Made by a program: the position numbers and the translations under genes. A stretch of DNA of 64,000 nucleotides, from the NCBI GenBank assembly GCA_019652555.1, contig BPAJ01000001.1:272762-336761 (forward strand), in the 5' to 3' direction. The stretch comes from Gammaproteobacteria bacterium. GTDB lineage: Bacteria > Pseudomonadota > Gammaproteobacteria > Magnimaribacterales > AG-339-G14. Below, piece by piece: positions 37,033 through 64,000 of the stretch. The notes under the pieces are model-generated. The model made no database searches. It saw nothing but the letters and a program-made list of their open reading frames with translations, and had not been told where the DNA came from. How positions within the stretch are numbered: position 1 is the stretch's first letter; every line of letters begins with the position of its first letter.

Positions 37033-38061
37033 ATGCCTTTTGTTTTCTTTTCATTATTATTCTTTTCTAGTTTTTCCTTTCTTACAGAAACGAATGAAGA
37101 GCTTACGGTCTCTACCAATCAAAATTGGAACTTTAAGCCTTCTTTAGAAACAATCTCATCTGACGAAATTAGTTTTTTAAACGTTACTCACAACAAAGAA
37201 CTTTTCAATTCTTCAGCAGGTAGTTGGATCAGTAGAGGATCGGGTCAAGAAAGCTTAATTTCCTTAAGATCGCCAGTATTAACTGGTTCAGGAGCTTGCG
37301 GGTCTTTCTTGATTTTGGAGGATGGTTTGCCAATCAGGCCAGCCGGATTTTGTAACGTCAACAATCTTTTTGAAGTTTCCACAAACTTAGCCTCTAAGGT
37401 TGAAATTTTAAAAGGCCCATCTAGTGCCAGGTTTGGTGGTAATGCTTTGCACGGGGCAATCAATTTTCAATCACTTGAAATTGATGCAAATAATTATCTA
37501 AAGACAGAAGTAAATGATGACGAGTCTTTCAAAGCATCTTTTCAATATCAGGAAGCAACCAATTGGTCCTTGGGAATTGCATTAGACAGAGATCAAGGAT
37601 TTAGAGATTCCAGTGGGTTTGACCAACAAAAATTAGCCTTTAAATCAAAAAATAATATTAAGAACTGGCAAGCTACAACACTTTTAAACTTAACCAACCT
37701 CAATCAAGAAACGGCAGGTTATATCAGCTCTTATAAATCAAGTTTAAGATTAACGAATGTCAATCCAGAAGCCTATCGGGATGCTAAGTCATTGCGCTTA
37801 AATACGCTTTTAACTCAAATTAAAGATAATTTTGAATTTCAGCTAAGACCTTACCTTAGGCACAGCAAGATGGATTTCATCCAGCACTATTTGCCTGGCA
37901 AGCCTTTAGAAAAAAACAGCCAAACCAGTTCGGGTCTAAATTTTTTAATGGACGTAAAAAGCTTTCCTAACCACAAACTTTCTTTTGGAATTAATTTTGA
38001 AATGGCCAATTCAATTAGAAGAATTTCAGGAAAACAAACTAACAACCAGTTCAGCTTTTAA
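37033..38061 (+). pseudogene. TonB-dependent receptor, fragment 1 of 3 (signal peptide, plug, start of barrel)
   Basis: Plug-domain motifs (VEILKGPSSARFGGNALHGAINF). Reading continues in another frame from about 38010. Confidence 0.75.
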
Positions 38062-38797
38062 CAATGCGGTAAGGCCTCAAGGCCTACATTACGACTTTGA
38101 AGTCGACACAAATTTATTTGCTGTATTTTTGTCTCATGAATTTATAACTGATGATGATTTTAAAATTTTTTCAAATGTTAGAACTGAGAGACTCAATTAC
38201 GATTACGATAATCTGATGCTTGACGGCAGAACCAGAGCCGATGGCTCGGCATGCGGATTTGGCGGATGTTATTACTCAAGACCTGCTGATACTGATATTT
38301 CATTTTCTGATAATTCTTTTAGGTTTGGTTTTTCCAAGAAAGTAATGACAAATGAATTCTTTTTGCAGTTCAGCAAAGGTTTTAGACCACCTCAAATAAA
38401 TGAGCTTTTTAGACTACAAAAAGCACAAACTTTGGCGGACTTAAATTCTGAAAAAATAGATTCCCTAGAATTTGGAATTCTTTCAACTGGAGATAACTTT
38501 TTAAATAAATTTGTTCTATTTTCTTCAAAGAAAAATAATTACATCTATAAAGATAATGATGCATCAACTGTAGCTGGAGGAAAATCAAAACATCAAGGCA
38601 TTGAAATTTCTGGGTCAGTGGATGTAACTCCTATGCTAATGATCAAATATGCTTGGAGCTTTGCTGAACATCTTTATGATTATTCCTTTTCATCCATTGG
38701 AGTTTATGAAGGTAATTTGATTGATACGGCGCCTAGAGTACAAGGAAGTTTATTTTTTAATATCTTTCCGCTTGAAAAGCTTAACCCTTCAAATTGA
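37985..38797 (+). pseudogene. TonB-dependent receptor, fragment 2 of 3 (barrel)
   Basis: Beta-barrel-like sequence from about QLEEFQENK onward. The frame breaks again near the T6 run at about 38750. Confidence 0.7.
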
Positions 38798-39038
38798 AGA
38801 AGAATATTTAGGCAAATACTTTACCGATCCTGCAAACCAATATAGCTATCCTGGACATTATTTAACCAACTTTAGAGGTTTTTATAATTTGACCTCAAAC
38901 CTTGATATCAACTTCAGTATTCTCAACGTATTCAATAAACGTTATGCCGAACGTGCAGATTACTCCTCTTTTTCTGGACAAAGATATTTTCCAGGTCTTC
39001 CGATACAATGGCGATTCGGATTTAGTTATTCTTTTTAA
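38721..39038 (+). pseudogene. TonB-dependent receptor, fragment 3 of 3 (C-terminal barrel strands)
   Basis: Ends ...FPGLPIQWRFGFSYSF*, the terminal aromatic residue typical of TBDRs. NVFNKRY motif present. Confidence 0.75.
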
Positions 39039-51647: not shown

Positions 51648-52330
51648 ATGTCCCGCTGGTTTCTAATATTTCTAACTTCTCTGCTCATTGTCTTAGGAGC
51701 TCGTTATGGTACTTATTCACCTCTTCCAACAGCAGTTTTTAGCGATTGCGAAACTCCAGTTGCTGAAAACAAATTTCAAGGTCTTTGGGAATTGGATCGA
51801 ATTGATAATTATGAAGCTTTTCACGAAGCACTTGGTCAAGACTCAGGATTTTTAAGCTTTATTGGAAGTACTTGCTTATCCATTTGTACTAGAACGCAGT
51901 CAGCTTTATCGTATCGAACAATGCGGTGCTGAAATTGCGCTTATCGGTAAATTATTTGAGAACATGGCTTGTCGCTCAGGCAGAAATAGAAGAACCCAAT
52001 ATTCAAGTGGAAATGAAAGATTTTTCAACCGAGCTGAAAGAAACTCTTGAAGAGACTTTTGAAGAAGTATTAACCGATGTCAAAGAGGCTCTTTCCATTG
52101 AACCAAAACCAGAGACAAATAAAGCTTTAAAATTTTTAAGAAAGTCAGACAATTTAAATATCTCTGCTGAACTTTTTCTCTCAGAAGAGGAAATAAAAAT
52201 CTATGGCACTCTCAATGGCAAGAACTACAAAGAAAAAATTTATTACGATGCCGGTGAATTGGTAAGAGAAATTGCTTTTGTTGATTCTTCTTTGGGTTCG
52301 ACGGATTTTATTTATCGTCGTTATCCTTAA
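51648..52330 (+). pseudogene. hypothetical membrane-anchored protein, split over three frames
   Basis: ORFs 51648..51932, 51862..52050 and 51926..52330 read through as one protein (N-terminal TM, ...GLWELDRIDNYEAFHEALG..., acidic C-half) if two frameshifts are allowed. No family recognised with confidence. Confidence 0.45.
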
Positions 52331-52363
52331 CTTCCCAGTGATGGGTCTCACTTAAAATTCTTG

Positions 52364-52951
52364 CTATGACAGCATCTCTTTGCTCATCTGGAATATCAAT
52401 ACGTTTACGTTTTTTGATAATTTTTCAAAAGCTTCGCGCTCAGATAATTCACCATCAACCACTTGTTGGACTGCACCCATTGCTGCCCATTGCATGTAAT
52501 GTCTTGCAGTTCTAAATTCAAGCAAATCTTCGATATCGGTATTTTGAATTTGCTTGGCTTTGACTGCATTTAAAAAGTTATTTTCCATATTGGGCTGAGA
52601 TGTTTCTTTGAAAACTTGAATAACCATTTGCACATCTTCCAAGAGCCAATTTATAGAAGGAGAATTGACCAATAAGTTGATGCCTCTGAGCAATGCCAAA
52701 TAGATGATGTAAACGTAGTCTTTCTCGTTTTTAACTCCCAACTTGAAGTCAATCAAAGTATTTTTAACAGTCTTGTTAAGAGCTTCGTATTGAATGGCTT
52801 CCACACTATCAAAATGGTTATAAAAGGTGCCATAGCCAACATCAGCAATCTTTATGAGCTTTTTTACGCTGATTTTTTCTTTTCCTTCGGAATTGAGATA
52901 GGTGATGGCAGCATCAATTAACTTTTCTCTGGTTTTACTCATTTCTGACAC
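52364..52951 (-). CDS. TetR family transcriptional regulator
   Basis: N-terminal HTH (KTREKLIDAAITYLNSEGKEKISVKKLIKIADVGYGTFYNHF). GTG 52951 or ATG 52942 as start. Divergent from the giant gene. Confidence 0.85.
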   Translation of the reverse strand: MSEMSKTREKLIDAAITYLNSEGKEKISVKKLIKIADVGYGTFYNHFDSVEAIQYEALNKTVKNTLIDFKLGVKNEKDYVYIIYLALLRGINLLVNSPSINWLLEDVQMVIQVFKETSQPNMENNFLNAVKAKQIQNTDIEDLLEFRTARHYMQWAAMGAVQQVVDGELSEREAFEKLSKNVNVLIFQMSKEMLS

Positions 52952-52994
52952 AGTGTACAGAAAATATGACAGACATCACAGTTTTTGCTTTAAT

Positions 52995-54080
52995 ATGATG
53001 CATATGAAGATAAAAATTAAATTTTTATCTCATCAAAGTACCAAAAACATCTTTTTAAAACTTTTTGTCACCTTGGTGGGATTGTCTGCGGGACTCTTTG
53101 CCTATGCCCAAGAAGAGATAGGTGTAGCTGCTGCAGTAAACACTACGACAACCGATAACTTTTACGATCCTTCGGGGATGTTCGCTGAACGTCGCCTGGT
53201 TGAAGAGGGTTATAAGATCATCCAAAACCGAACCATCGAAACCGATGAGAAAGGTAAGGCACAAATGATTCTTATCGATGGAACAGCCTTTACCATCGGT
53301 CCCAATTCCAAAGTTATCCTAGATAAATTCGTTTACAACCCGGAGACCAACGATGGATTCCTGGAAATGCAAGCTACCGGATTATTGCGTCTGGTAGGAG
53401 GAAAAGTAACCAAGAAAAATGCCGCAATGATCAATACCAGCGTTGCAACAGTTGGTATTCGAGGAGGAATCGTCATTGTTGATTCCGATGCTGAGACAAC
53501 CTCAGCAGCTTTTGTCTATGGTCAAGAAATGGAAGTGATTCCTCTTGAAAACCAAGCAGGCAGAACGCTTTTAACAGAAGACGGATTTGTTGTAGAAGTA
53601 AACGATCCATATGACGACATCGATACACCCGAACTTTTAACCGCTGAAGCTTTAGCAAGTTATTCAGCAGAACTTGAAGGAAGTGAGGAAGAAGAGGAAG
53701 AAGAGTCGGAAAGCGAATCGGAAGAAGAATCAGAAGAAGAGGAAGAAGAATCAGAAGAAGAATCTGAAGAAGAATCTGAAGAAGAATCAGAAGAAGAATC
53801 AGAAGAGAATCAGAAGAAGAAGAGTCAGAAGAAGAATCAGAAGAAGAATCAGAAGAAGAAGAATCAGAAGAAGAATCAGAAGAAGAATCTACAGAAGAAG
53901 AATCTACAGAAGAAGAATCAACTGAAGAAGAATCCACAGAAGAAGAATCAACTGAAGAAGAATCCGAAGGTTCTGAAGAAGGCGAATCAAGTGAAGGAGA
54001 TGAATCCGGAACAGAGTCTTCTGATGAAGGGTCTCAAGAAGATTCTTCTGAAGCAGAGCAAGAACTCCACCTGCAACTGA
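52995..54080 (+). pseudogene. giant gene 1, first fragment: signal peptide, FecR-like domain, (EEES)n tract
   Basis: Signal peptide ...GLSAGLFAYA|QEE. DGTAFTIGPNSKVILDKF resembles FecR-domain proteins. After about 53806 the listed ORF reads the acidic repeat in the wrong frame (NQKKKSQKK...). Confidence 0.6.
53683..53975 (+). repeat. 12-nt tandem repeat GAAGAAGAATCA and variants (codes EEES)
   Basis: Read directly. About two dozen units with TCA/TCT/TCG/ACA variants. Confidence 0.9.
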
Positions 54081-54150
54081 AGCAGAAGAAACTGAAACTG
54101 AGCAGCCTGCAGAAGCTGATACACCTGCTAGTGAAGAAAATGATGTTTCA

Positions 54151-55131
54151 TTGGATTCTACAGAAGAAAGTCCAGCAGCAGATTCCGAACCATTAGATGT
54201 GGGTACTGAAGGAGATTCGAGTGAAGTTGATCTTAATGATGAATTTACTGAAGTTTCAGAACAAGAGGAACCGGAAATAGAAATTGACGAGAATTCCCTT
54301 CTGACTGATGCAGGAATATCAGATAACAGTTCCAATGTTGCTCCAGACCAATTGACTACTTCCGATGATATTGGAGGTGAACTTGGCGGAGATTTATTTG
54401 AAATCGAACAGGAAGAGGAGGATGCTGTCGAAGAGACTACTGATGAGGTTCAAGATACGACTTCTGAAACAGTTCAACAAGAAGCCATTGAAGAAAAAAT
54501 GGCAGCAAATGTCACTGTGAGAGCAGAATCTTTTGTTGAAAGTTCTCCTAAAAATACTTTAATTGCGACTACCGCAGTTGAAGGTCAAGGTGTTACCTAT
54601 GCGCTTGAAAACGACTTTGGTGTATTCAAAGTCAATAAAAAGGGAAAAATCAAAACCAAAGGATTTTTGGATTTTGAGACAACTCAACAATACGATTTGG
54701 TTCTCCTTGTTACAAATAAAAGAGGAGAGGTTACCAGAGTTCCATTTAGAGTAGATGTTGCTGATGTTTCAGAATTAAGCGCATCTCATACAGTTCGAAA
54801 AAACGCTTTTCATGAAGGAACTACGCAAGTTGGCTCTATCGTTGCTGATATCTTGCCTGTCGCTGATGAAACACCCACATACGAACTTACTGGAGCAGGA
54901 AGTGAATATTTTCGAATCAACAACAATGGAAAAATCAAGGTTGATCAACCATTGGACTTTTCTGCATTCCAGACAATCGAGTTACAAGTTGTGATAACCA
55001 GCGGCACAGAATCAACCACCGAAACGGTAGTTATCAATGTGCAAGAAAACTTATCACCTGATTTCACTCATACTCTTTCGAATGCAAATGGAGTTTTCTC
55101 GAAGGCGCTGCCCTTGGAACGTCTATTTTAA
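54151..55131 (+). pseudogene. giant gene 1, acidic linker end plus first cadherin-like repeats
   Basis: The frame is open from about 54066 (TPPATEAEETETEQ...). Repeats carry G.I.TKGFLDFETTQQYDL and G.IKVDQPLDFSAFQ. Confidence 0.6.
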
Positions 55132-58100
55132 ATGTAACTCGAACAGATACCGACTCAGATGATCTGGTTTATTCTTTGGAAAATGATTTCTCGGGAACGT
55201 TTGCCATTGATTCAACCACGGGTGAGGTTTCTTTGAATAACTCTTTGGATTATGAAACCACAAGCTCTTACAACCTAAAAGTCATTGCAACGGATTCAAA
55301 AGGACTTACCAAAGAAATAATCGAACCTCTCCAAGTTGGCGATGTAGTCATTAGTTTTAATGGAGATCAAACCGATCCAAATGATACTTATTCGGAAGGG
55401 TACAGCCTTAGGTCACGTTATCGTTGATTCTTTCACAAGTAATTTTAGTAATGTCACTTATTCGCTTTTGCAGGATAACGATTCCAAATTTGCTATAAAC
55501 CCTTCAACTGGACAAGTCACTTTAGCTAGCAATTTTGATTTTGAAACAAGCCAATCGCATAGTTTTACCGTTCAGGCATCCGCACCCAATGAAGCTCCAG
55601 AGACCTTAGTTTTTGATGTATTTATAGTGATGTGTCTGTGGATTTTCAAATTAGAAACACCAACAATGCTGATATTACCGATTTAGGGAATTTAGCTTTT
55701 GGGAGTTTTTACCGGTTGGCACGAAATTGCCAATGTCTCTTCAAGTGAAACAGGTGCAACTTTTGCTTTAATCGATCCAGACAATAAGTTCAACATTGAT
55801 GCCAATGGTCGAATAACTTTAGCAAATGCTTTTGATTACGAGAGCGATGCAACACATTCATTGCAAGTGGAGGTAACGGCAAATGGCGAACCGGTCTTGG
55901 TAGGGTGATTCCCATACAAGTTAACAATCAGCAAGTCTCGAGAAACGTAATTTCAGCAAATGGAATAACCCTGAAATAGGTGTTACGGATTGAATAACTT
56001 TAGAATAGGAGAATTTTCTCCTGCAGGAACAGTAGTGAGTACGGCAAACGGTACTCCAGGAATTACTTGGAGCCTTTAAACACGATGATAATCCGCTTCA
56101 AATCGATCCTAATACTGGTACCGTAACTTTAGCCAGTCCTTTAGATTTTGAATCCGATAACACTCATATATATCAAGTAGTAGCTTCCTTTGACAACGAG
56201 CCAGATAGATATACTGGATATATAACCTTTAAAGTGGATGATGAGTCTTACAACAGCGTCATACCGTATTTTAATAGCACCAGCGTTACCAACACAAACT
56301 TCGTTGGAAATCGTATGCTTCAGGCAACCAATAATTGGATGCGCCAATCTGGTACTGCAATCAGTGCCTGGATTCCAAACAACATGGGTACAAAAGACGC
56401 AGCAGGAAGAGTCATTGCTGATTTTGGTCAAGGTCTCCCAGCGGGCACGACTTATGCGCTATCTTTCCTAGATACTACAGGTTGGCAAGTTTTAACTTGT
56501 GGCACTGGTGACTCTGCTGATTCTAGGCATGGTTGCTTTGACGTTGATTCTAATGGTGTTCTTCGAGTGGCTGCAGGAAAAACTCTCGAATCAGTTAACG
56601 CCGGAGTATTTAGAGGTAAAACTTTAGGTGGTTTAAATCGGGAACAGCAGATGATAGACAAATTAGCGGGCCATTCTCCAAATGGACATTGGGTGAGAGA
56701 TAATTATGCTAATACTATCTCGGTTGCAATCACGCCACCAAATGAGCCAACCACTTATAGCTCTATTAATTTAAAGCCTGTCAGGACTGAGGCTCAAGAA
56801 AACGTGGTCATGAAATTTTCTGAAACACTGGTTAAAACAGGTACTTTTCCTGGCGATAGGCCGTTTGAGCGCGGTCAAGGCTACTATTTCAAGCGAGAGG
56901 CTTCAATGGCTACGGCTAAAGGAGAACCCGGTGCAAATTAATGCAAGCCAATACGGTCACGGAGATTCCATTACTGAATCCGTTTTGGCATCTCATCAAT
57001 TGGAAGGCAACACCAAATTAGCATCGGCAACTACTATGGTAGGTGGCGGTACGGCTTATTATGGCCAATCCAATGGCGCCAAAACTTATTACCGAACCAA
57101 CACCGTCGCCAACGGTTTGAACGAAAACGATACGAATATTTTGGATTTTGAGTATTGGTTCCCAGTGGACAATGCTCATAATGGGCATTCTGTAACGGGT
57201 ACAGCCAAGACCATAGGAATTTATGCACCTTTGGCTGTTGCAAACGCCGATTGGGATAATGAAGCACATTCCAATGAAAGAGCTAAATACGGTTGTTACA
57301 ACTCTGGCAAAGCAGGTTTATGTGGTACTGGAACGCACGAATTGTCTATTTCGGCAGCATGGTGCAAAAGCACTGAAAGTTTTCAGGTTCAGGAACATTC
57401 AAAAATGTTCCGTCTAACCAGTTAGTACCGATACTTGCTTAATGCTGACATGGATGGAGTAATCTGGTAATGGAACTTTGGCTGGTTTACAATAACATTC
57501 TGGAGACCAGCTCTGTACTTTGGGGTCGGCTAGGATTAAATCTGGGTTCCGATAGATGAATTTATCAGAATTTGAAACCGTGAACTACCAGAGTTTAATT
57601 AATTTTGGACAAGATTTTCGCACATATACGTCAATGAAAATGGTTTTTTAACTTTTGGTAATGGCGGAGCGATACGATAAACCTGGGACAACATTATTTT
57701 TCTTCAAATAACCTAGTCCTCATTTGGAGGAGGAAGGTTTTGCATTATTTAGACGATGCGGTAGCCTATGAAATCTTACTTCAACAAAAACCCAAAGATG
57801 TTTAAATAGCTATCCGCAATTTATGGACAACCTAACCGACATTTAAAGGGAAAATTTTAAAGATAATTCGATTTTTGCGCTTTGGACATTACTTCAATGA
57901 CAGCACGAAATTGTCCGTTTGGGTCGATCAATGAAACTTGGGATGCATCTACTAAAATTCTACCATCGGTTGGTACAACATGAGATCTCTAATTCCAATA
58001 AAAGGTGGAAAAGAGGCTAATTTTGAAGTGCAATTAAATTTCAATAACAACGAATTTAGAATTGTTCATGGTGATTTTGGTAAAATTTCCGATACAGATG

Positions 58101-60791
58101 AAACAACGTTTTTACCGGTTTTAAAGATGTACCTGTGCATCAAGTGGTAATATCCAGGCTTGTGAAGGTAGATTACATGCAACTTTACTGGCAAAGACTC
58201 CGATTTTGGACCTTATGAGCAAGTTGATGATCAAAAAGGTGGCTTTTCGAACTCCATACATCGACGCCCGTTTATAACAACAGCATTAACAATCTATTTT
58301 ACAATCAAACGATAGGTAAAACAATATTGTTTTAGGCGGAGAGATAATGATTTTGGTGATTCTACTTCTTGTTCTATGGTACTAAATTGGAGTCTGCAAA
58401 GGCCAGACTACTCATAAGTTTTACTCGTGTGTGCCCAATAGCAAGTAATACAAAAATGTTCTCTTACCGTTTCCCACATCAAACAATCTTATAGCTTTTG
58501 GCACTCAAGCAGAATTCATGTGGATGGAATTAAGAAAACCATCGACTACTCTGACTTATACACCACCGGAAAATAACGCTACCGGTTTTATCACAAGGCG
58601 GGGCCAATAAAAACGCAAGCGTCACTACCGGTACTTTAACAGCAGGTTCTGCAGTTTCAACTACGACCTACGCCAATGAGGTGGTAATTGCCGGAGAAGT
58701 TTATAAAGACGAACAAATGGATGCGTTTTTGAATGGTACGAAAAAGGTTCTTGCATTTGCACCGATTCCAATCATTCACACCAACAAATATAGAATGACC
58801 CAACAGCCTACTGGTGCTACCGATGTGAGATTCAAACATACTCATACCATCATGCCGCATTTCATTTCCGAGGCTTTTATGGAAGATAAAGACAACGGCA
58901 CGGATTTGCGCTTTGATTTTCACCAATTGGTTGATCAAGATTATGCCGCTTCAGGTTATCACATGGTCTATGGTACAAGCGGAAGTAATTCTTTTGCCAC
59001 GCAAAACCAGTACGCCAACAGTATGCAAGAACTTAATATGGACGGAATGTATGCTTATACCGGAGATGTTTTGGCTCAGGATGGCTCCCTTGCAACCACT
59101 CGTTTCAATAATGGCAACGCAAGCAATTACAACACTCCCATAGGTCAATCTTTGTGGCAACAAGTATTCAATCCGAATGGCAGAGGTGCTGGAATTTTTG
59201 TCCAAATGAATTGGAGTTGCGGTGACGGGGGTAGCGTACGCTGTAATCAACCCTACAATGCTAAGGACGCAGGTCCACACAAAACGCAACAAAGTTTGTT
59301 CTCGGTATTAATCGCTGAAGTCGGGAGCAAAACCTTTTTCAAGATCAAACTCAAAGTCTTCAAGAACTAGAAAGCTATGACGGTTATGCCCAAGGCCATG
59401 TCATGCGAGGCGAACATTATTGGAGTTACAAAAGACGTTCTGGTCGAACTATCACTACCGATGGTGCATATGCTACGACTGACGCTTCACCGCAACTGAG
59501 TTTTGGGCAAAACCCCATTAATTGTCATTCTGGGGTAGACAATGGTTGTTTTTTTGGTGACGGGCAAAGTCCGGATTCCGCTACGATTGGTGCACCTCAA
59601 GTAGCAGTGGTAACAACCAGTGATTCTTGTAAACACGGGCTTATTCCAGGTAACGGTTGTAATAGTTATCATAATCCAGGAGTCATGCATTCCATGGCAG
59701 AAACAACCGATTCAACCGATCCAGAGTGGAAGGTTGGTAGTTTTAACCAAGGTATCGTTTTGCAAAAACAACGGGATGCCAACAATAATTTGGTAGAAGC
59801 CATTAATTTAGAAGGCGCTACCAACAGTTGGCGAGCCGGTCAAACCACAACTTCCGATACTTGGACGGGCAGCATGATTGGTTTATTGATGACCGATGTC
59901 AACGATACTTCTAAAATGCCATTCCACGATCTTTCAACGTCAACTCTTTACAAGTATTTTTTGATGATCGCAACGATCGAGTCAAATTCCTCGGTGAAAA
60001 CATCAACATCGAAAAGACCTCGGAAATGAATGTGAGACGAATGCTTTCTTTGCCTGTTCTGCTGCTCGAGGTGTAAATCATTGGTATCACGCCGTGGGCG
60101 GACAAACAGGAAGAAGTGCTGGATTGAACTTCAATAACATCTCTAACACCAACCCTATCCAATTTGGCGATGCCGACGATACCATTGATCAACCTTACGA
60201 TTCCGGAAGATATGATTTAACTCAACCTTGGACAGAATCAGCTTATTTAAATAAAAAGTATTCGGTGCAATTTTAAAAAAGGTATTACTTTTACTGCAGG
60301 ATCCAGCTGTGAGAATGTCAACGACTGTTCCGCTGGGACAGATTCTGTCAATGTTGCAGGAGCAATTGTCACTTGGGATACCATCGAGAAAAAAGATCGC
60401 GATTTCATGTCCGATACCACAACCGAACCTTCTTTGGACTATATGAGTTGGGGTATTTGGGCAATGGCCATGCTGATATTGAACAAAGATCAGGTACTAC
60501 AAAAGAGGCTGCAGCTGTGCACATGGGTACCTGGTATGCCGGTGATCTTCTGGATGCTTCCGATTGGCCTGTTGAAAGAACAGCCAGTTTAGCAGGGATG
60601 GCAATGTTTGATTATTTGCTCGTATTGAAGAGGGTGGCGTCACCAATTCTTATCATTGGACCGAAGGGGCAGCAGCCACAGGTTCAGTACAATTTCATTC
60701 AAACGGTAGCTATGATGTTGCGATTACAGTAGACAATCTTGGCTCAGAATATTGTCCATCAAGTTATTGTGGATCAACTTTTGATCAAAAT

Positions 60792-61085
60792 ATGAATAAA
60801 GGTCCTATGGGGAGCATCACCTGGAACGCATCTCAATCAGCAACGACTAAAAACCCTCACTTCTCAACTGCGCAATCTTCAACTGTTGCTGGTGGTTTTT
60901 CTCGGATAACCGAACGAGATAATGCCGCAGTTGCTGGTGGTCACAACGTTATTACATATAAAAATATGTCTGGCAGTCTTTACGGTACGGCAAACCATGT
61001 TGAAGTCGGTGCGCAGCTAGAATTCACCAGACAAAATATCAATGAAATGATCATGCTGCGTGGTACAGCAATTTTATCGGAGTAA
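60792..61085 (+). pseudogene. giant gene 1, C-terminal end (TbpB-like beta-barrel tail)
   Basis: ...SGSLYGTANHVEVGAQLEFTRQ....LRGTAILSE* together with upstream LDYMSWGIWA and TASLAGMAMFD. The pattern resembles TbpB/fHbp-type 8-stranded barrels. Confidence 0.4.
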
Positions 61086-61400
61086 TTATTGAATAGGGAG
61101 AAACAGAATTTGAATTGAGCATGAGAACGGAGATCAATAACCTTTCTTTTGGAACCTTCTTTGGTTCTTTGTTGTCTTTTTGGTACTTTGACAACAGAAA
61201 GGCTATTCATCACCCGATCTTGCTCGGCTGGGCTCGGTGGTTTCCATCGGGTTCAGTCCAAGTTATTGATTTTATTTGGAAAAAGCTAAGTAAAAAGATT
61301 GAAAAATGGGCATTTTTTGCTAATTTTCACCTTGGCTTTTTGCTAAAACCTCAAAAAATTCGTTTTTTTGGGGTTTTTGGCGTTGGTTATTGATATGTAT

Positions 61401-61730
61401 ATGAGACAAAAACATATGAATCTCTTGAAAACTGCACTCATTGCAGTGAGTTTCATCGTCTATCCGTTGTCTTATGCACAAGATGAAATTGGGGTAGCAG
61501 CAGCGGTAAACACCAAAACCGTTGATATGGTGGCCTATCCTGGGGGTAATATTGAAAACCGTAACGTTGATCCTGGTTACAAGATCATCTCGAATAGAAC
61601 CATTCAAACCAACAAGAGCGGAAAAGCTCAAATGCTCTTAGTTGATGGTACAGCTTTTACCATTGGTCCTAATTCAACAGTTACTTTGGATAAATTTATC
61701 TATGATCCAGAACAGCCTCTGGAAGTTTAG
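61401..61730 (+). pseudogene. giant gene 2 (paralogue), N-terminal fragment: signal peptide plus FecR-like domain start
   Basis: MRQKHMNLLKTALIAVSFIVYPLSYA|QDEIGVAAAVNTKT...DGTAFTIGPNSTVTLDKFIYDPEQ aligns residue for residue with gene 1. The start could be ATG 61401 or 61416. Confidence 0.65.
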
Positions 61731-61774
61731 AAGTTTCAGCTAAAGGCTTGTCAGATTGGTTGGAGGAAAGGTAA

Positions 61775-64000
61775 CCAAAAAAAAACCTGCCATTATTAAG
61801 AACAAGCACTGCAACTGTTGGAATCAGGGGAGGAATTGCAATTGTTGAGGCAACTGATGAAGAAACAACAGCATCTTTTGTTTATGGAGTTGAAATGGAA
61901 GTAGCTCCAATTAAAAATCCAGACAATAGTTTAGTTCTTACTCAAGTAGGATTAAGTGTTGAAGTGGAGGCAGATTCTGAAGAAGTTGAAGAGCCTGAAG
62001 TAATTACTTCAGAAGAGTTGGATGATTATGCCGATGACTTTGAAGGCAATGAAGAGCCCGACGAAGAGTCAAGTGATGATTCAGAATCTGAAGAATCAAC
62101 TAATGATTCTGAAGAGTCTTCAGAAAATGAAGATACCGAAGATACCGAAGAGACTGAAGAAACAGAAGAAAACGAAGAAGAAGCTGAAGAAAGCGAAGAA
62201 GAAGCTGAAGAAGCTGAAGAAGCAGAAGAAGCTGAAGAAAGCGAAGAAGAAACAGAAGAAAACGAAGAAGAAACAGAAGAAAACGAAGAAACAGATGAAC
62301 CGGAAGAAGCTGATGAGGCTGAAGAAAACGAAGAAGAATCAGATGAGGTAGAAAGTGAAGAAACTGAAGAGAATGATAATGAAGAAGCAGAAGAAACCGA
62401 AACTGAAAGCGAAGAAGTAGATGAAGAAACAGAAAACGAAGAGCTAGAAGACTCCGAAGAATCAACGGATAATTCGTCGGAAGAAGAGACTACAGAAGAA
62501 GAAGCGTCGACTGAGCCAGAAAACGAAGAAACATCAGAAGATGTGTCTAGTCCAGAAGAATCGTCTGAATCTGAAACTCAAAATGATGAGAACTCTTCCA
62601 GTGCTGAAAACGATTCTCCAGAGGAAACAGCGTCTCAAGAATCTACTGATACTGAAGACGAACCTTCAGAAAATGGTTCCCCAATAGAAACTTCAAGTTC
62701 AGATGAAGATTCATCATCCAGTGATACCAATGAGACAACCTCTATCGAAACAGAAGATGATTCTCAAGATCAATCTTCAGAAAACGTTGATTCAAATGGA
62801 GGACTATCTGGCGAAACAACATCGTCCGACACTTCAAGTAGTACTTCTAGCAATGAATCGTCAAACGATCAATTTTCAGGAGAGTCCGATGGCAATGTTG
62901 AATCTCAAGCAACATCTGAAGAGAGTCAAACAGCTCCAGAAGTTCAAGGTCCAACCGTTACCAGTTCGTCATCAAGCGATGACGTTAGTCGTCCAACACA
63001 ACCTAATGAAGGCAGAGAAATTGAGGAGCCGCCTTTAACAAGACCTACAGGAGAACCCACGACCTCACCAGAACCAGCGACAACAAGTCCATCTTCAGAC
63101 CCTGTTCCACTAACACAACCTGCAACCGCAACTTCTTCCTCGGATTCAGTACCATTGGTTCAACCTCCGACTTCTACCGCGTCTTCGGATTCAGTACCAT
63201 TGGTTCAACCTCCGACTTCTACCGCGTCTTCGGATTCAGTACCATTGGTTCAACCTCCGACTTCTACTGCGTCCTCAGACACGGTACCTTTGATTTTACC
63301 GCCTACAGCAACTTCTTCCTCTGATTCTGTGCCTTTGATCCAACCAGAAATTCAGGAACCGGAAGTAATTAATATCGAACCTATTAACAATGAACCCATT
63401 ACAGCATTACCTGAAATTGATGAAGGCTTGTTGGATAGCTTCGATATCACCACAAATACTTCAGACACTGGAATTGATGATCTCACAACGGCTTACGATG
63501 TGGGTGGAGAATTATTTATTGACGATACTCAAATTGAAACTCAAGAAGAAGAATTTATTGAAGAGGCTACTGAGGCCAACGAAGAAGTCCAGATAGATGA
63601 AGTTCAAGAAGAGCAAAAAGTAGAAGTGGTTATTGAAGCGCAGTTGACTACAAATGCCTCGTTTATTAAAACAAATATTGAAGAAAATCTCTCGGTTGGA
63701 GCATCTCTTGGAAAAATTGATGTCAATTATACTGGCTCGGAAAATCTTAGTTTTGTCTTAGGCGGCAATGGTAGTGAAAATTTTGAAATTGATGCCCAAG
63801 GAAATATTTCTTTAAAAAACAATCTCGATTACGAAGCTAGGACAACCTACAGTTTATTGGTATTCACTTTGTTGGGTGACAAACAAATTACCAATACCTT
63901 GGATTTTACTGTTGTAGATATCGATGAAGATCCGATTGTGGACTTAAATCTAGCGGTCAATTCTTTAGCTGAAAACACTGCAACGAATTTTAAAATCGGT
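61775..64000 (+). CDS. giant gene 2, main open frame (rest of FecR-like domain, about 330 codons of acidic/Ser-Thr tract, Pro-rich 15-aa repeats, cadherin-like repeats), open at window end
   Basis: Not in the track because it has no stop before 64000. My translation reads ..TSTATVGIRGGIAIVEATDEETTASFVYGVEMEV...EEAEESEEEAEEAEE...SDSVPLVQPPTSTAS x3...GNISLKNNLDYEARTTYSLLVF..DIDEDP. Confidence 0.7.
63126..63350 (+). repeat. 45-nt tandem repeat (about 5 units, 3 near-identical) coding SDSVPLVQPPTSTAS
   Basis: CGGATTCAGT recurs at 63141, 63186 and 63231 (period 45). Degenerate units flank the three near-identical ones. Confidence 0.85.

What the first reader, a model, noticed from the sequence alone, without database searches (positions are those of the whole stretch)
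52995..61085. Giant secreted protein with an unusual domain order: FecR-like, poly-acidic spacer, cadherin repeats, nidogen-like segment, TbpB-like barrel
Twelve same-strand ORF pieces join into one reading of about 2700 codons. It starts with a Sec signal peptide (..LFAYA|QEE) and a FecR-like domain (DGTAFTIGPNSKVILDKF, VATVGIRGG). About 150 codons that are almost only E/S/T/D follow, then a conserved DIGGELGGDLFEIEQEEED junction. After that come several cadherin-like repeats with LDYE/FDFE signatures and a segment with nidogen-like words (VNENGFLTFGNGG, FEVQLNFNNNEFRIVHGDF). Two unassignable Gly/Asn/Thr-rich regions follow, and the protein ends in a TbpB/fHbp-like barrel.

I do not know a described family with this combination. 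It lies just downstream of, and divergent from, a TetR gene and is followed by a paralogue. In a tiny, streamlined genome, about 11 kb of such genes is a large investment, perhaps in a surface or particle-adhesion or cation-binding apparatus.
Basis: partly seen in the sequence, partly recalled or inferred. Interest (0 to 1): 0.65.

Follow-up and report, generated by a model that had tools for sequence, protein, structure and literature searches.

The report
Giant SAR86 surface protein, frames broken
The broken ORF pieces are one real gene of about 2,700 codons for a giant secreted protein found only in the abundant ocean bacterium SAR86; it is intact in single-cell genomes, its frame breaks here are most likely assembly errors, and its domain order, which ends in a TbpB-like barrel, has not been described.

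Summary
Window 52995-61085 (+) is collinear, end to end, with intact relatives. The break count is wrong, though: there are about 42 frameshifts and about 6 stops, not 12 pieces.

In Illumina single-cell genomes of SAR86 the orthologue is one ORF of about 2,380-2,680 residues from the start codon. It sits at the same locus: two acyl-CoA dehydrogenases, a 226-aa hypothetical, TetR, one or two giant genes, an ion channel.

The breaks are 1-2 base indels, several in short homopolymers. They also hit the neighbouring TetR and hypothetical genes. They differ in position from those in a contig about 98% identical over much of the gene. dN/dS is 0.13. I read them as long-read consensus errors in a strain-variable island, not decay.

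Domain calls:
- FecR: supported (Pfam, above cutoff).
- Cadherin, six repeats: supported.
- TbpB/fHbp-like C-terminal barrel: supported at fold level only (Foldseek E 1e-5). No Pfam hit.
- Nidogen-like: partly supported. The profile retrieves true NIDO proteins, and hhalign gives 96.8% over 31 columns only.

Best reading: a Sec-exported surface fibre with conserved ends and a hypervariable distal part. It may cross the outer membrane by a type 11 (Slam-like) route. That step is inferred, and no DUF560 gene was found.

The parts
51648..52330 (+). Conserved 226-aa hypothetical protein with an N-terminal hydrophobic segment. It is syntenic with the giant gene in all SAR86 loci. Here it is split by two +1 frameshifts (near 51863 and 51939).
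   Evidence: Frameshift-aware alignment to the intact L006 protein, 204/226 identical. Synteny.
52308..52942 (-). TetR-family regulator, 211 aa in relatives, transcribed divergently from the giant gene. Its start codon lies about 52-60 nt from the giant gene's start. One -1 frameshift lies near its 3' end (about 52397).
   Evidence: Pfam TetR_N 22.5 bits, just under the cutoff of 24. Alignment to L006 TetR. Sequence.
52995..53108 (+). Start codon region (orthologues begin at MKIKIKF, 53004) and Sec type I signal peptide, predicted cleavage AYA|QEE. No lipobox cysteine.
   Evidence: Direct reading. The same N-terminus is present in intact SAR86 orthologues.
53109..53675 (+). FecR-like domain (Pfam match 53232-53516). 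It is the most conserved part of the protein: 89-95% pairwise identity among orthologues.
   Evidence: PF04773 28.3 bits against a cutoff of 24. Precomputed PF04773 on most of the listed relatives. Conservation profile.
53676..54366 (+). Acidic Glu/Ser/Thr/Asp spacer of about 230 codons, built on a GAAGAAGAATCA repeat. It carries two frame breaks (near 53806 and 54061). Its length varies between orthologues.
54367..54423 (+). Conserved junction DIGGELGGDLFEIEQEEED. The 100-column alignment block that contains it shows 94% pairwise identity among orthologues.
54499..56236 (+). Six cadherin repeats with LDFE/LDYE/FDFE/FDYE signatures. The repeat number varies between orthologues. About 8 frameshifts fall here.
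   Evidence: PF00028 hits on each piece. PDB cadherins match the family profile at E down to 7.5e-31. Frameshifts. Occupancy drop in the alignment.
56237..57561 (+). Post-cadherin region with no assignable domain (conserved motif NTVANGLNENDTxILDFEYWFP).
   Evidence: No Pfam or PDB sequence hit. Collinear with P0001 and P0005.
57562..58219 (+). NIDO-like module with an insertion of about 55-70 residues. Together with its flanks (57352-58589) this is the most damaged stretch of the window.
   Evidence: Profile search retrieves true NIDO proteins. hhalign 96.8% over 31 columns. Pfam NIDO gives no hit. Frameshift map.
58220..59828 (+). Cys-containing and Gly/Asn/Thr-rich distal regions, unassigned.
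   Evidence: No Pfam or PDB hits. 92% identical to P0001 from 58588 onward.
59829..61085 (+). C-terminal TbpB/fHbp/NHBA-like beta domain. The best-modelled barrel core is about 60511-61082, and the protein ends ..GTAILSE. Stop codon at 61083-61085. Six single-base deletions fall here.
   Evidence: AF2 pTM 0.80. Foldseek top hits are TbpB 4o4u at E 1.2e-5, NHBA 6cuj, fHbp 2w81 and the TbpB C-lobe 5kkx. Coordinates.
61416..64000 (+). Start of the tandem paralogue, which runs off the window. It has the same signal peptide, FecR domain, a longer acidic and Pro/Thr/Ser spacer, and a first cadherin repeat. Three indels lie at 61711-61796.
   Evidence: The first 98 residues are 100% identical to P0004, which is intact at 2,481 aa in two Illumina contigs. 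Indels. Tandem repeats.

Best explanation
**What it is.** Window 52995-61085 is a single gene for a secreted protein of about 2,690 residues that is specific to the marine gammaproteobacterial clade SAR86. In nature it is an intact ORF.

**Why it looks broken.** In this assembly the frame is interrupted by about 42 small indels. These are most probably consensus errors of a long-read assembly in a strain-variable island where polishing failed. Shown: collinearity with intact relatives, intact orthologues, the SAR86 assignment and the synteny. Inferred: the cause of the errors.

**Architecture.**
- type I signal peptide;
- FecR-like domain, the most conserved part;
- an acidic disordered spacer of 200-500 residues;
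- a conserved junction;
- a variable number of cadherin repeats;
- a fast-diverging distal region of about 1,500 residues that includes a NIDO-like module;
- a C-terminal TbpB/fHbp-type barrel.

**Proposed mechanism (inferred).**
1. Sec exports the chain to the periplasm.
2. The C-terminal TbpB-like barrel targets it to an outer-membrane translocator of the type 11 (Slam/DUF560) kind, as for soluble TbpBBD cargo.
3. The conserved N-terminal FecR-like domain stays on the periplasmic side as an anchor or plug, and the acidic spacer spans the envelope.
4. The cadherin stalk holds the variable head away from the cell for adhesion or capture.
5. The head varies because it is exposed to phage or grazer selection.

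**Confidence by step.**
- About 0.85: it is one functional gene in nature and the breaks are artefacts.
- About 0.6: it is a surface-displayed fibre.
- About 0.35: the route is type 11 secretion.
For: **One gene, intact in nature.**
- Collinearity with intact relatives.
- The orthologue is a single intact ORF in ten Illumina SAR86 single-cell or MAG contigs (nine gene-1 copies beside TetR plus L020 of the gene-2 type). The nine gene-1 copies sit at the same locus.

**Breaks look like errors.**
- They are 1-2 base indels, mostly deletions, several in short homopolymers.
- L002, a pilon-polished contig about 98% identical over much of the gene, is intact where the window is broken. It is broken only in the NIDO-like stretch, and at other positions.
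- The neighbouring TetR and 226-aa genes are also frameshifted, and so is a TonB-dependent receptor at 37033-39038.
- A related MAG record title carries 'NP' (which I read as nanopore) and 'pilon', and its copy is equally fragmented.
- dN/dS against L001 is 0.13 over 826 codons.

**Domains.**
- FecR and cadherin by Pfam.
- TbpB-like fold.
- NIDO link.

**Conserved ends, variable middle.**
- FecR domain 89-95% pairwise identity, junction block 94%, repeats and middle 37-68%, last 250 columns 71-79%.
- The flanking acyl-CoA dehydrogenase A is mostly 95-100% identical across genomes, while the C-terminal 157 aa of this allele are only 36-44% identical to the single-cell alleles.

**Secretion route.** Type 11 cargo are defined by a C-terminal TbpB-type barrel. 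They include soluble proteins with a type I signal peptide and a single barrel (PMC8406197; PMC12282271).
Against: - No read data were available, so a true pseudogene in this one strain cannot be excluded.
- No DUF560/Slam gene is among the ten largest ORFs of the window. None appears in the Pfam listings for genes within 10 kb of the homologues in L001-L009. Whether SAR86 has one anywhere in its genome could not be tested.
- The barrel matches no Pfam barrel family, even at E<=10, in 52 family members.
- Foldseek TM-scores are modest: 0.40-0.46 normalised to the small targets.
- Described type 11 cargo are far smaller, and none carries cadherin or FecR domains.
- The role of the FecR-like domain as a periplasmic anchor is pure inference.
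Confidence: 0.6

Rival explanations
1. It is a genuine, decaying pseudogene in this particular SAR86 strain. The locus, including TetR and the 226-aa gene, has been inactivated and is eroding.
For: About 42 frameshifts and about 6 stops. Adjacent genes are also broken. The 52 kb upstream is largely intact.
Against: - dN/dS is 0.13 over the C-terminal 826 codons.
- The breaks are almost all 1-2 base indels, with a deletion bias.
- Break density jumps from about 1 per 350 nt to about 1 per 55 nt exactly where strains diverge most.
- Independent long-read, pilon-polished contigs show the same kind of damage at different positions.
- Illumina single-cell genomes and contigs are intact.
- A TonB-dependent receptor elsewhere in the window is damaged in the same way.
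Confidence: 0.1
2. It is a real giant surface protein, but not a type 11 substrate. The C-terminal barrel would be an outer-membrane anchor inserted by BAM, or the protein would leave through another route such as type 2 secretion. In that case the barrel would serve as a ligand-binding module only.
For: - No DUF560 gene was found in the window or in the annotated neighbourhoods of relatives.
- Low-probability Foldseek matches to porins and OccK-type barrels exist (ranks 23-50).
- There is no Pfam TbpBBD match.
Against: - All 22 top Foldseek hits are soluble Slam-cargo-type barrels: TbpB, LbpB, fHbp, NHBA. HpuA follows at rank 32. Probabilities are up to 1.0, against 0.1-0.4 for porins.
- The C-terminus ends ..AILSE, without the terminal aromatic residue typical of BAM substrates (direct reading; established knowledge of the beta-signal).
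- Type 11 genes need not be linked to their cargo.
Confidence: 0.25
3. The pieces are several unrelated short genes, and the apparent continuity is chance.
For: A mechanical ORF list shows only short ORFs.
Against: Every piece aligns in order to single intact proteins, with bit scores up to 2,268. Orthologues are single ORFs.
Confidence: 0.01

Closest known systems
Type 11 secretion (Slam/DUF560) cargo with a C-terminal TbpB-type barrel: TbpB, LbpB, fHbp, HpuA, NHBA, and soluble hemophilin/HrpC-type 'TbpBBDsol' proteins
   Same: A Sec signal peptide, and a C-terminal beta domain whose predicted fold matches TbpB, fHbp and NHBA best. It has a type I signal with a single barrel, as in soluble cargo (PMC8406197).
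   Different: - About 10 times larger than described cargo.
- Carries FecR, cadherin and NIDO-like modules that are not listed among known or predicted cargo architectures (PMC12282271).
- No Pfam TbpBBD match.
- No linked DUF560 gene found.
- The host is a free-living oligotroph rather than a host-associated bacterium.
Giant bacterial repeat adhesins exported by type 1 secretion (LapA, MpIBP and SiiE types)
   Same: A very large protein with a long stalk of Ig- or cadherin-like repeats. A conserved N-terminal module could act as a periplasmic retention plug. The distal ligand-binding region is variable.
   Different: It has an N-terminal Sec signal peptide. Pfam found no RTX or type 1 secretion signal. 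It ends in a TbpB-like barrel instead.
FecR-family anti-sigma regulators (PF04773)
   Same: The N-terminal domain scores above the Pfam FecR cutoff.
   Different: There is no cytoplasmic anti-sigma domain and no transmembrane helix; a cleavable signal peptide takes their place. The neighbouring regulator is TetR, and no ECF sigma factor was found next to the gene. So it shares the domain, not the system.
NIDO (nidogen-like, PF06119) domains of animal extracellular proteins and bacterial multi-NIDO proteins
   Same: The N-terminal motif FxYFGxxYxxIYVNxNGxLTF is significantly similar (hhalign E 2.9e-10). A profile of the segment retrieves multi-NIDO proteins, with one match per NIDO unit.
   Different: The Pfam NIDO model does not match. 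The second half is not significantly similar. A 55-70 residue insertion splits the module. The AF2 model is of low confidence.

Membership tests
Type 11 secretion (Slam) cargo | C-terminal TbpB-type beta-barrel domain | tested here: met
   Met at fold level only. The AF2 model has pTM 0.80. The Foldseek top hits are TbpB, NHBA, fHbp, the TbpB C-lobe and LbpB (HpuA at rank 32), with E down to 1.2e-5 and probability up to 1.0.
Type 11 secretion (Slam) cargo | Sequence membership in the Pfam TbpBBD / lipoprotein C barrel families | tested here: not met
   No such family at E<=10 in 52 family members, nor in full-length P0001, P0004 or P0007. The PDB sequence profile search was empty.
Type 11 secretion (Slam) cargo | Sec signal peptide (type I or II) | tested here: met
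   Direct reading: MKIKIKFLSHQSTKNIFLKLFVTLVGLSAGLFAYA|QEE. It is conserved in the orthologues. No signal-peptide predictor was run.
Type 11 secretion (Slam) cargo | A cognate DUF560 outer-membrane protein in the neighbourhood or genome | tested here: not met
   Neighbourhood only. None among the ten largest window ORFs, ten further ORFs, or the genes within 10 kb listed for L001-L009. Genome-wide presence in SAR86 could not be tested with these tools.
FecR domain (PF04773) | Score above the Pfam gathering cutoff | tested here: met
   28.3 bits against 24 for the window's own piece, and 31.9 bits for P0004.
FecR-type anti-sigma regulator system | N-terminal cytoplasmic anti-sigma domain plus transmembrane helix, with an adjacent ECF sigma factor and TonB-dependent transducer | tested here: not met
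   The protein starts with a cleavable signal peptide. The neighbours are TetR, a 226-aa hypothetical and acyl-CoA dehydrogenases.
Cadherin repeat proteins (PF00028) | Repeats scoring above the gathering cutoff | tested here: met
   46.3, 53.9 and 36.0 bits are above the cutoff of 28.8. Two further repeats score 25.8 and 23.6. The family profile matches PDB cadherins at E down to 7.5e-31.
NIDO domain (PF06119) | Match to the Pfam NIDO model | tested here: not met
   No hit at E<=10 in 13 family members.
NIDO domain (PF06119) | Profile-level homology to verified NIDO units | tested here: inconclusive
   The profile retrieves NIDO proteins: P0079 at E 2.4e-35 with 15 stretches for 15 NIDO units, plus P0088 and P0095. 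hhalign gives 96.8% but over 31 columns only. The second half gives E 0.19.
Type 1 secretion RTX adhesins / type 5 autotransporters | C-terminal RTX repeats or secretion signal, or a 12-stranded autotransporter barrel | tested here: not met
   No such Pfam families in the window pieces or the full-length relatives. An N-terminal Sec signal is present.

The most novel reading that the evidence does not exclude
SAR86, one of the most abundant free-living ocean bacteria, displays a 2,400-2,700-residue non-lipidated fibre by a type 11 (Slam-like) pathway. The C-terminal TbpB-like barrel leads export. A conserved periplasmic FecR-like domain, with its acidic tether, acts as the retention anchor in place of a lipid. 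It might dock to the signalling domain of a TonB-dependent transporter. This would be a new display mode for giant adhesins, and the first type 11 cargo of this size and ecology. Its hypervariable head would be shaped by phage or grazer pressure.
Probability: 0.15. Interest if true: 0.8.

Novelty: new variant of a known kind. Interest (0 to 1): 0.55.

Why it matters
SAR86 is among the most abundant bacterioplankton groups and has largely resisted cultivation. Its genomes are only about 1.1-1.7 Mb (my own knowledge, not tested here; contigs up to about 1.3 Mb).

- **Cost.** One or two of these genes take up 8-16 kb, about 1% of the genome, at a fixed locus.
- **Variation.** The distal part diverges to about 40% identity while the flanking enzymes stay mostly 95-100% identical. 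That pattern is expected for a major cell-surface structure under diversifying selection. It bears on phage susceptibility, particle attachment and the limits of metagenome assembly for this clade.
- **Secretion.** The TbpB-like C-terminal barrel gives a testable link to type 11 secretion outside host-associated bacteria.
- **Assembly quality.** Long-read MAGs can carry dense, localised frameshift errors in exactly such loci, and these mimic pseudogenes.

Tried and rejected
- **Pfam on the last ~1,500 residues** (pieces and intact relatives): nothing.
- **Pfam NIDO at E<=10:** nothing.
- **Pfam barrel families at E<=10** on 52 C-terminal sequences: nothing.
- **PDB sequence searches:**
  - the C-terminal profile gave nothing;
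  - the whole post-spacer profile gave cadherins only;
  - the FecR-like domain gave only chance FABP matches.
- **AF2 of the NIDO-like region:** pLDDT 45, and Foldseek was uninformative.
- **A profile search with the C-terminal domain** found only close family members, with no annotated distant relatives.
- **A profile search with the N-terminal domain:** the 120 listed hits are short fragments 49-98% identical, with no other architecture visible.
- **Literature searches** for SAR86 plus cadherin, giant protein or genomic island, and the SAR86 and type 11 secretion papers, gave no description of this protein.
- **Looking for a Slam/DUF560 gene:**
  - not in the window ORFs scanned;
  - I had no DUF560 sequence to search SAR86 genomes with.
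- **Phase variation** as the cause of the frameshifts: rejected. The homopolymers are only 2-6 nt and the breaks are far too many.
- **A diversity-generating mechanism** for the dense breaks at 57.4-58.6 kb: considered and not pursued. The changes are indels, and they occur in the long-read contigs but not in the Illumina contigs.

Full report
**1. What is in the sequence**

The mechanical ORF list for 52.9-61.1 kb shows only short same-strand ORFs in all three forward frames. The 52 kb upstream are densely packed with intact genes.

I joined the post-cadherin pieces roughly and searched the protein collection. This returned long intact relatives:
- P0001: 1,586 aa, 83% identity.
- P0004: 2,481 aa, with precomputed FecR and cadherin domains.
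- P0002 and P0007: more than 2,000 aa each.

I wrote a frameshift-aware protein-to-DNA aligner to test collinearity.
- P0001 aligns over all 1,586 residues to window 56315-61082 at 82% identity. The path crosses about 29 frameshifts and 6 stops.
- P0005 (928 aa) aligns to 54.67-57.4 kb at 95% identity, with 11 frameshifts.
- The intact 977-aa N-terminal ORF of Illumina contig L007 aligns from the start codon through the acidic spacer into the cadherin repeats. It is about 99% identical over the first ~270 residues.

So the pieces are one reading of about 2,697 codons. The number of disruptions is about 42 frameshifts plus about 6 stops, not twelve.

**2. Organism and locus**

A scan of one genome per GTDB species with the C-terminal alignment found 19 loci. 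Fifteen are titled SAR86 single-cell genomes or MAGs. Two more are Gammaproteobacteria MAGs with the same synteny. The two Opitutia contigs carry the SAR86 flanking genes at 91-95% identity, and those and the Flavobacteriales contig are probably mis-binned.

In ten Illumina-based contigs the gene is a single intact open frame of 2,377-2,714 aa (about 2,380-2,680 residues from the start codon). Nine are gene-1 copies and begin MKIKIKFLSHQSTKN...AYAQEE or a close variant. The tenth, L020, is of the gene-2 type.

Synteny is fixed: acyl-CoA dehydrogenase B, acyl-CoA dehydrogenase A, a 226-aa hypothetical, TetR (divergent), giant gene 1, a second tandem giant gene in about half of the genomes, then an ion-channel gene and a steroid-dehydrogenase-like gene.

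The window has the two-copy form. Its gene 2 starts at 61416. The first 98 residues are identical to P0004, which is intact in two independent Illumina contigs.

**3. Why the frame is broken**

- Against L002, a pilon-polished contig about 98% identical over much of the gene, the differences that break the frame are single-base indels. Most are deletions in the window, and several lie in runs of 2-6 identical bases.
- L002 is intact where the window is broken. It is itself broken 12 times, only in the NIDO-like stretch, and at different positions.
- An NCBI MAG has its copy shattered into about 15 ORFs. Its record title carries 'NP' (which I read as nanopore) and 'pilon'.
- In the window the damage is not confined to the giant gene. 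The 226-aa gene has two +1 shifts and TetR has one -1 shift. Gene 2 has three indels at 61711-61796.
- A TonB-dependent receptor at 37033-39038 is split into three ORFs.
- The damaged zone (51.86-61.8 kb) coincides with the stretch where contigs of this population diverge in a mosaic pattern of 50-99% identity.
- dN/dS between the window and L001 is 0.13 over the last 826 codons and 0.41 over the first 328 codons after the cadherin repeats.

Together this points to consensus errors of a long-read assembly at a microdiverse locus. A strain-specific pseudogene remains possible (about 0.1), because I had no reads.

**4. Domain assignments**

- **FecR.** PF04773 scores 28.3 bits against a cutoff of 24, at 53232-53516.
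- **Acidic spacer.** It runs from 53676 to 54366 and is built on GAAGAAGAATCA x21.
- **Junction.** DIGGELGGDLFEIEQEEED lies at 54367-54423.
- **Cadherin.** Six repeats between 54.5 and 56.24 kb. The family profile matches PDB cadherins down to E 7.5e-31.
- **C-terminus.**
  - No Pfam or PDB sequence match.
  - An AF2 model from a 52-sequence alignment has pTM 0.80, with the barrel part at pLDDT 80-92.
  - Its 22 best Foldseek matches in the PDB are all TbpB, NHBA C-domain, fHbp, TbpB C-lobe or LbpB N-lobe, with HpuA at rank 32. E-values go down to 1.2e-5 and probabilities up to 1.0.
  - Porins follow only at probabilities of 0.1-0.4.
- **NIDO-like segment.**
  - Pfam NIDO does not hit. AF2 gave a poor model, and Foldseek found nothing.
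  - A profile of the segment searched against 1.84 billion representatives gave 220 hits at E<=0.001.
  - Fourteen of them were scanned with Pfam. The Pfam-checked hits include P0079 (15 NIDO units, 15 matched stretches, E 2.4e-35), P0088 (8 units, 8 stretches) and P0095 (4 units, 4 stretches). Eight of the first ten scanned are Pfam NIDO proteins.
  - hhalign against an alignment of verified NIDO units gives 96.8% probability at E 2.9e-10. It covers only the 31-column motif ETVTLPETFDYFGQSFTHIYVNENGFLTFGN.
  - The second half is not significant, at E 0.19.
  - I call this partly supported: a divergent NIDO-like module with a large insertion.
- **Unassigned.** The regions 56.24-57.56 kb and 58.22-59.83 kb remain unassigned.

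**5. Evolutionary pattern**

Among the eight gene-1 orthologues that aligned in full (the start of a ninth was mis-parsed), pairwise identity runs as follows:
- 89-95% in the FecR-like domain;
- 94% in the alignment block that holds the junction;
- 82-86% in the first cadherin repeats;
- 37-62% with variable repeat number in the later repeats;
- 57-79% in the distal 1,500 residues;
- 71-79% in the last 250 columns.

The window's allele belongs to a different class. Its last 157 residues are 96-99% identical to L001 and L002. They are only 36-44% identical to the single-cell alleles, although acyl-CoA dehydrogenase A next door is mostly 95-100% identical. More than 20 short-read contigs that carry an identical dehydrogenase are all under 10 kb. 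The four examined end at or inside the giant gene. That is the classic behaviour of a hypervariable island.

**6. Mechanism**

*Shown:*
- a Sec type I signal peptide;
- conserved terminal modules with a variable middle;
- a TbpB-type C-terminal fold.

*From the literature:*
- type 11 (Slam/DUF560) cargo are unified by a C-terminal TbpB-type barrel;
- they include soluble proteins with a type I signal peptide and a single barrel (PMC8406197; PMC12282271).

*Inferred.* The barrel targets the chain to a Slam-like translocator. The FecR-like domain and acidic tether stay behind as the cell-proximal anchor. The cadherin stalk projects a variable NIDO-containing head.

*Not shown.* No DUF560 gene was found in SAR86. 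None lies near the locus, and I could not search whole genomes.

*Alternatives.* The barrel could be a membrane anchor, or only a ligand-binding module with export by another route.

**7. Novelty**

Sources name fragments only 'cadherin repeat domain-containing protein, partial', 'FecR domain-containing protein, partial' or 'hypothetical'. No paper I could find describes the protein. The type 11 cargo catalogue lists no such architecture. Giant surface proteins in hypervariable islands of streamlined marine bacteria are a known theme. I therefore rate this a new variant of a known kind, with moderate interest.

Noticed in passing
window 37033-39038 (+): A TonB-dependent receptor is split into three overlapping ORFs (342, 270 and 105 aa). 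The Plug domain is in the first and the beta-barrel in the second. That implies two frameshifts near 38,000 and 38,750. It is another surface-exposed gene with frame damage, outside the island.
   Followed up: partly
window 51648-52330 (+) and 52308-52942 (-): The 226-aa hypothetical gene has two +1 shifts (near 51863 and 51939). The TetR gene has one -1 shift (near 52397). The damaged zone therefore begins about 1.1 kb upstream of the finding.
   Followed up: yes
window 53008-53030: A perfect 11-nt inverted repeat, AGATAAAAATT / AATTTTTATCT, lies directly after the start codon of the giant gene, about 65 nt from the TetR start codon. It could be a TetR operator or an mRNA hairpin. The encoded residues vary among orthologues, so conservation is doubtful.
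   Followed up: no
window 63140-63273 (gene 2): Three copies, 98% matching, of a 45-nt tandem unit encoding SSDSVPLVQPPTSTA lie within a longer 90-nt periodic Pro/Thr/Ser-rich stretch of the paralogue's spacer.
   Followed up: no
window 51751-62000 versus L002, L006 and L007: Identity between contigs of this population switches abruptly between about 98-100% and 50-85% in blocks. For example 54.0-57.0 kb is 98% identical to L002, 57.5-58.5 kb is 50-68%, and 62-64 kb is 99-100%. This suggests recombination between allele classes, or chimeric assembly.
   Followed up: partly
L010 and L011 (NZKY01, 'Opitutia' MAG) and L012 (CAJWCX01, 'Flavobacteriales' MAG): These MAGs carry the SAR86 giant gene. 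L010 and L011 also carry the SAR86 ion-channel gene (and L010 the steroid-dehydrogenase-like gene) at 91-95% protein identity. These contigs are probably binning contamination.
   Followed up: no
L006-L009 and other contigs: An identical 413-aa acyl-CoA dehydrogenase is found on more than 20 short-read contigs, all under 10 kb. The four examined end at or inside the giant gene. Short-read assemblers break at this locus.
   Followed up: partly
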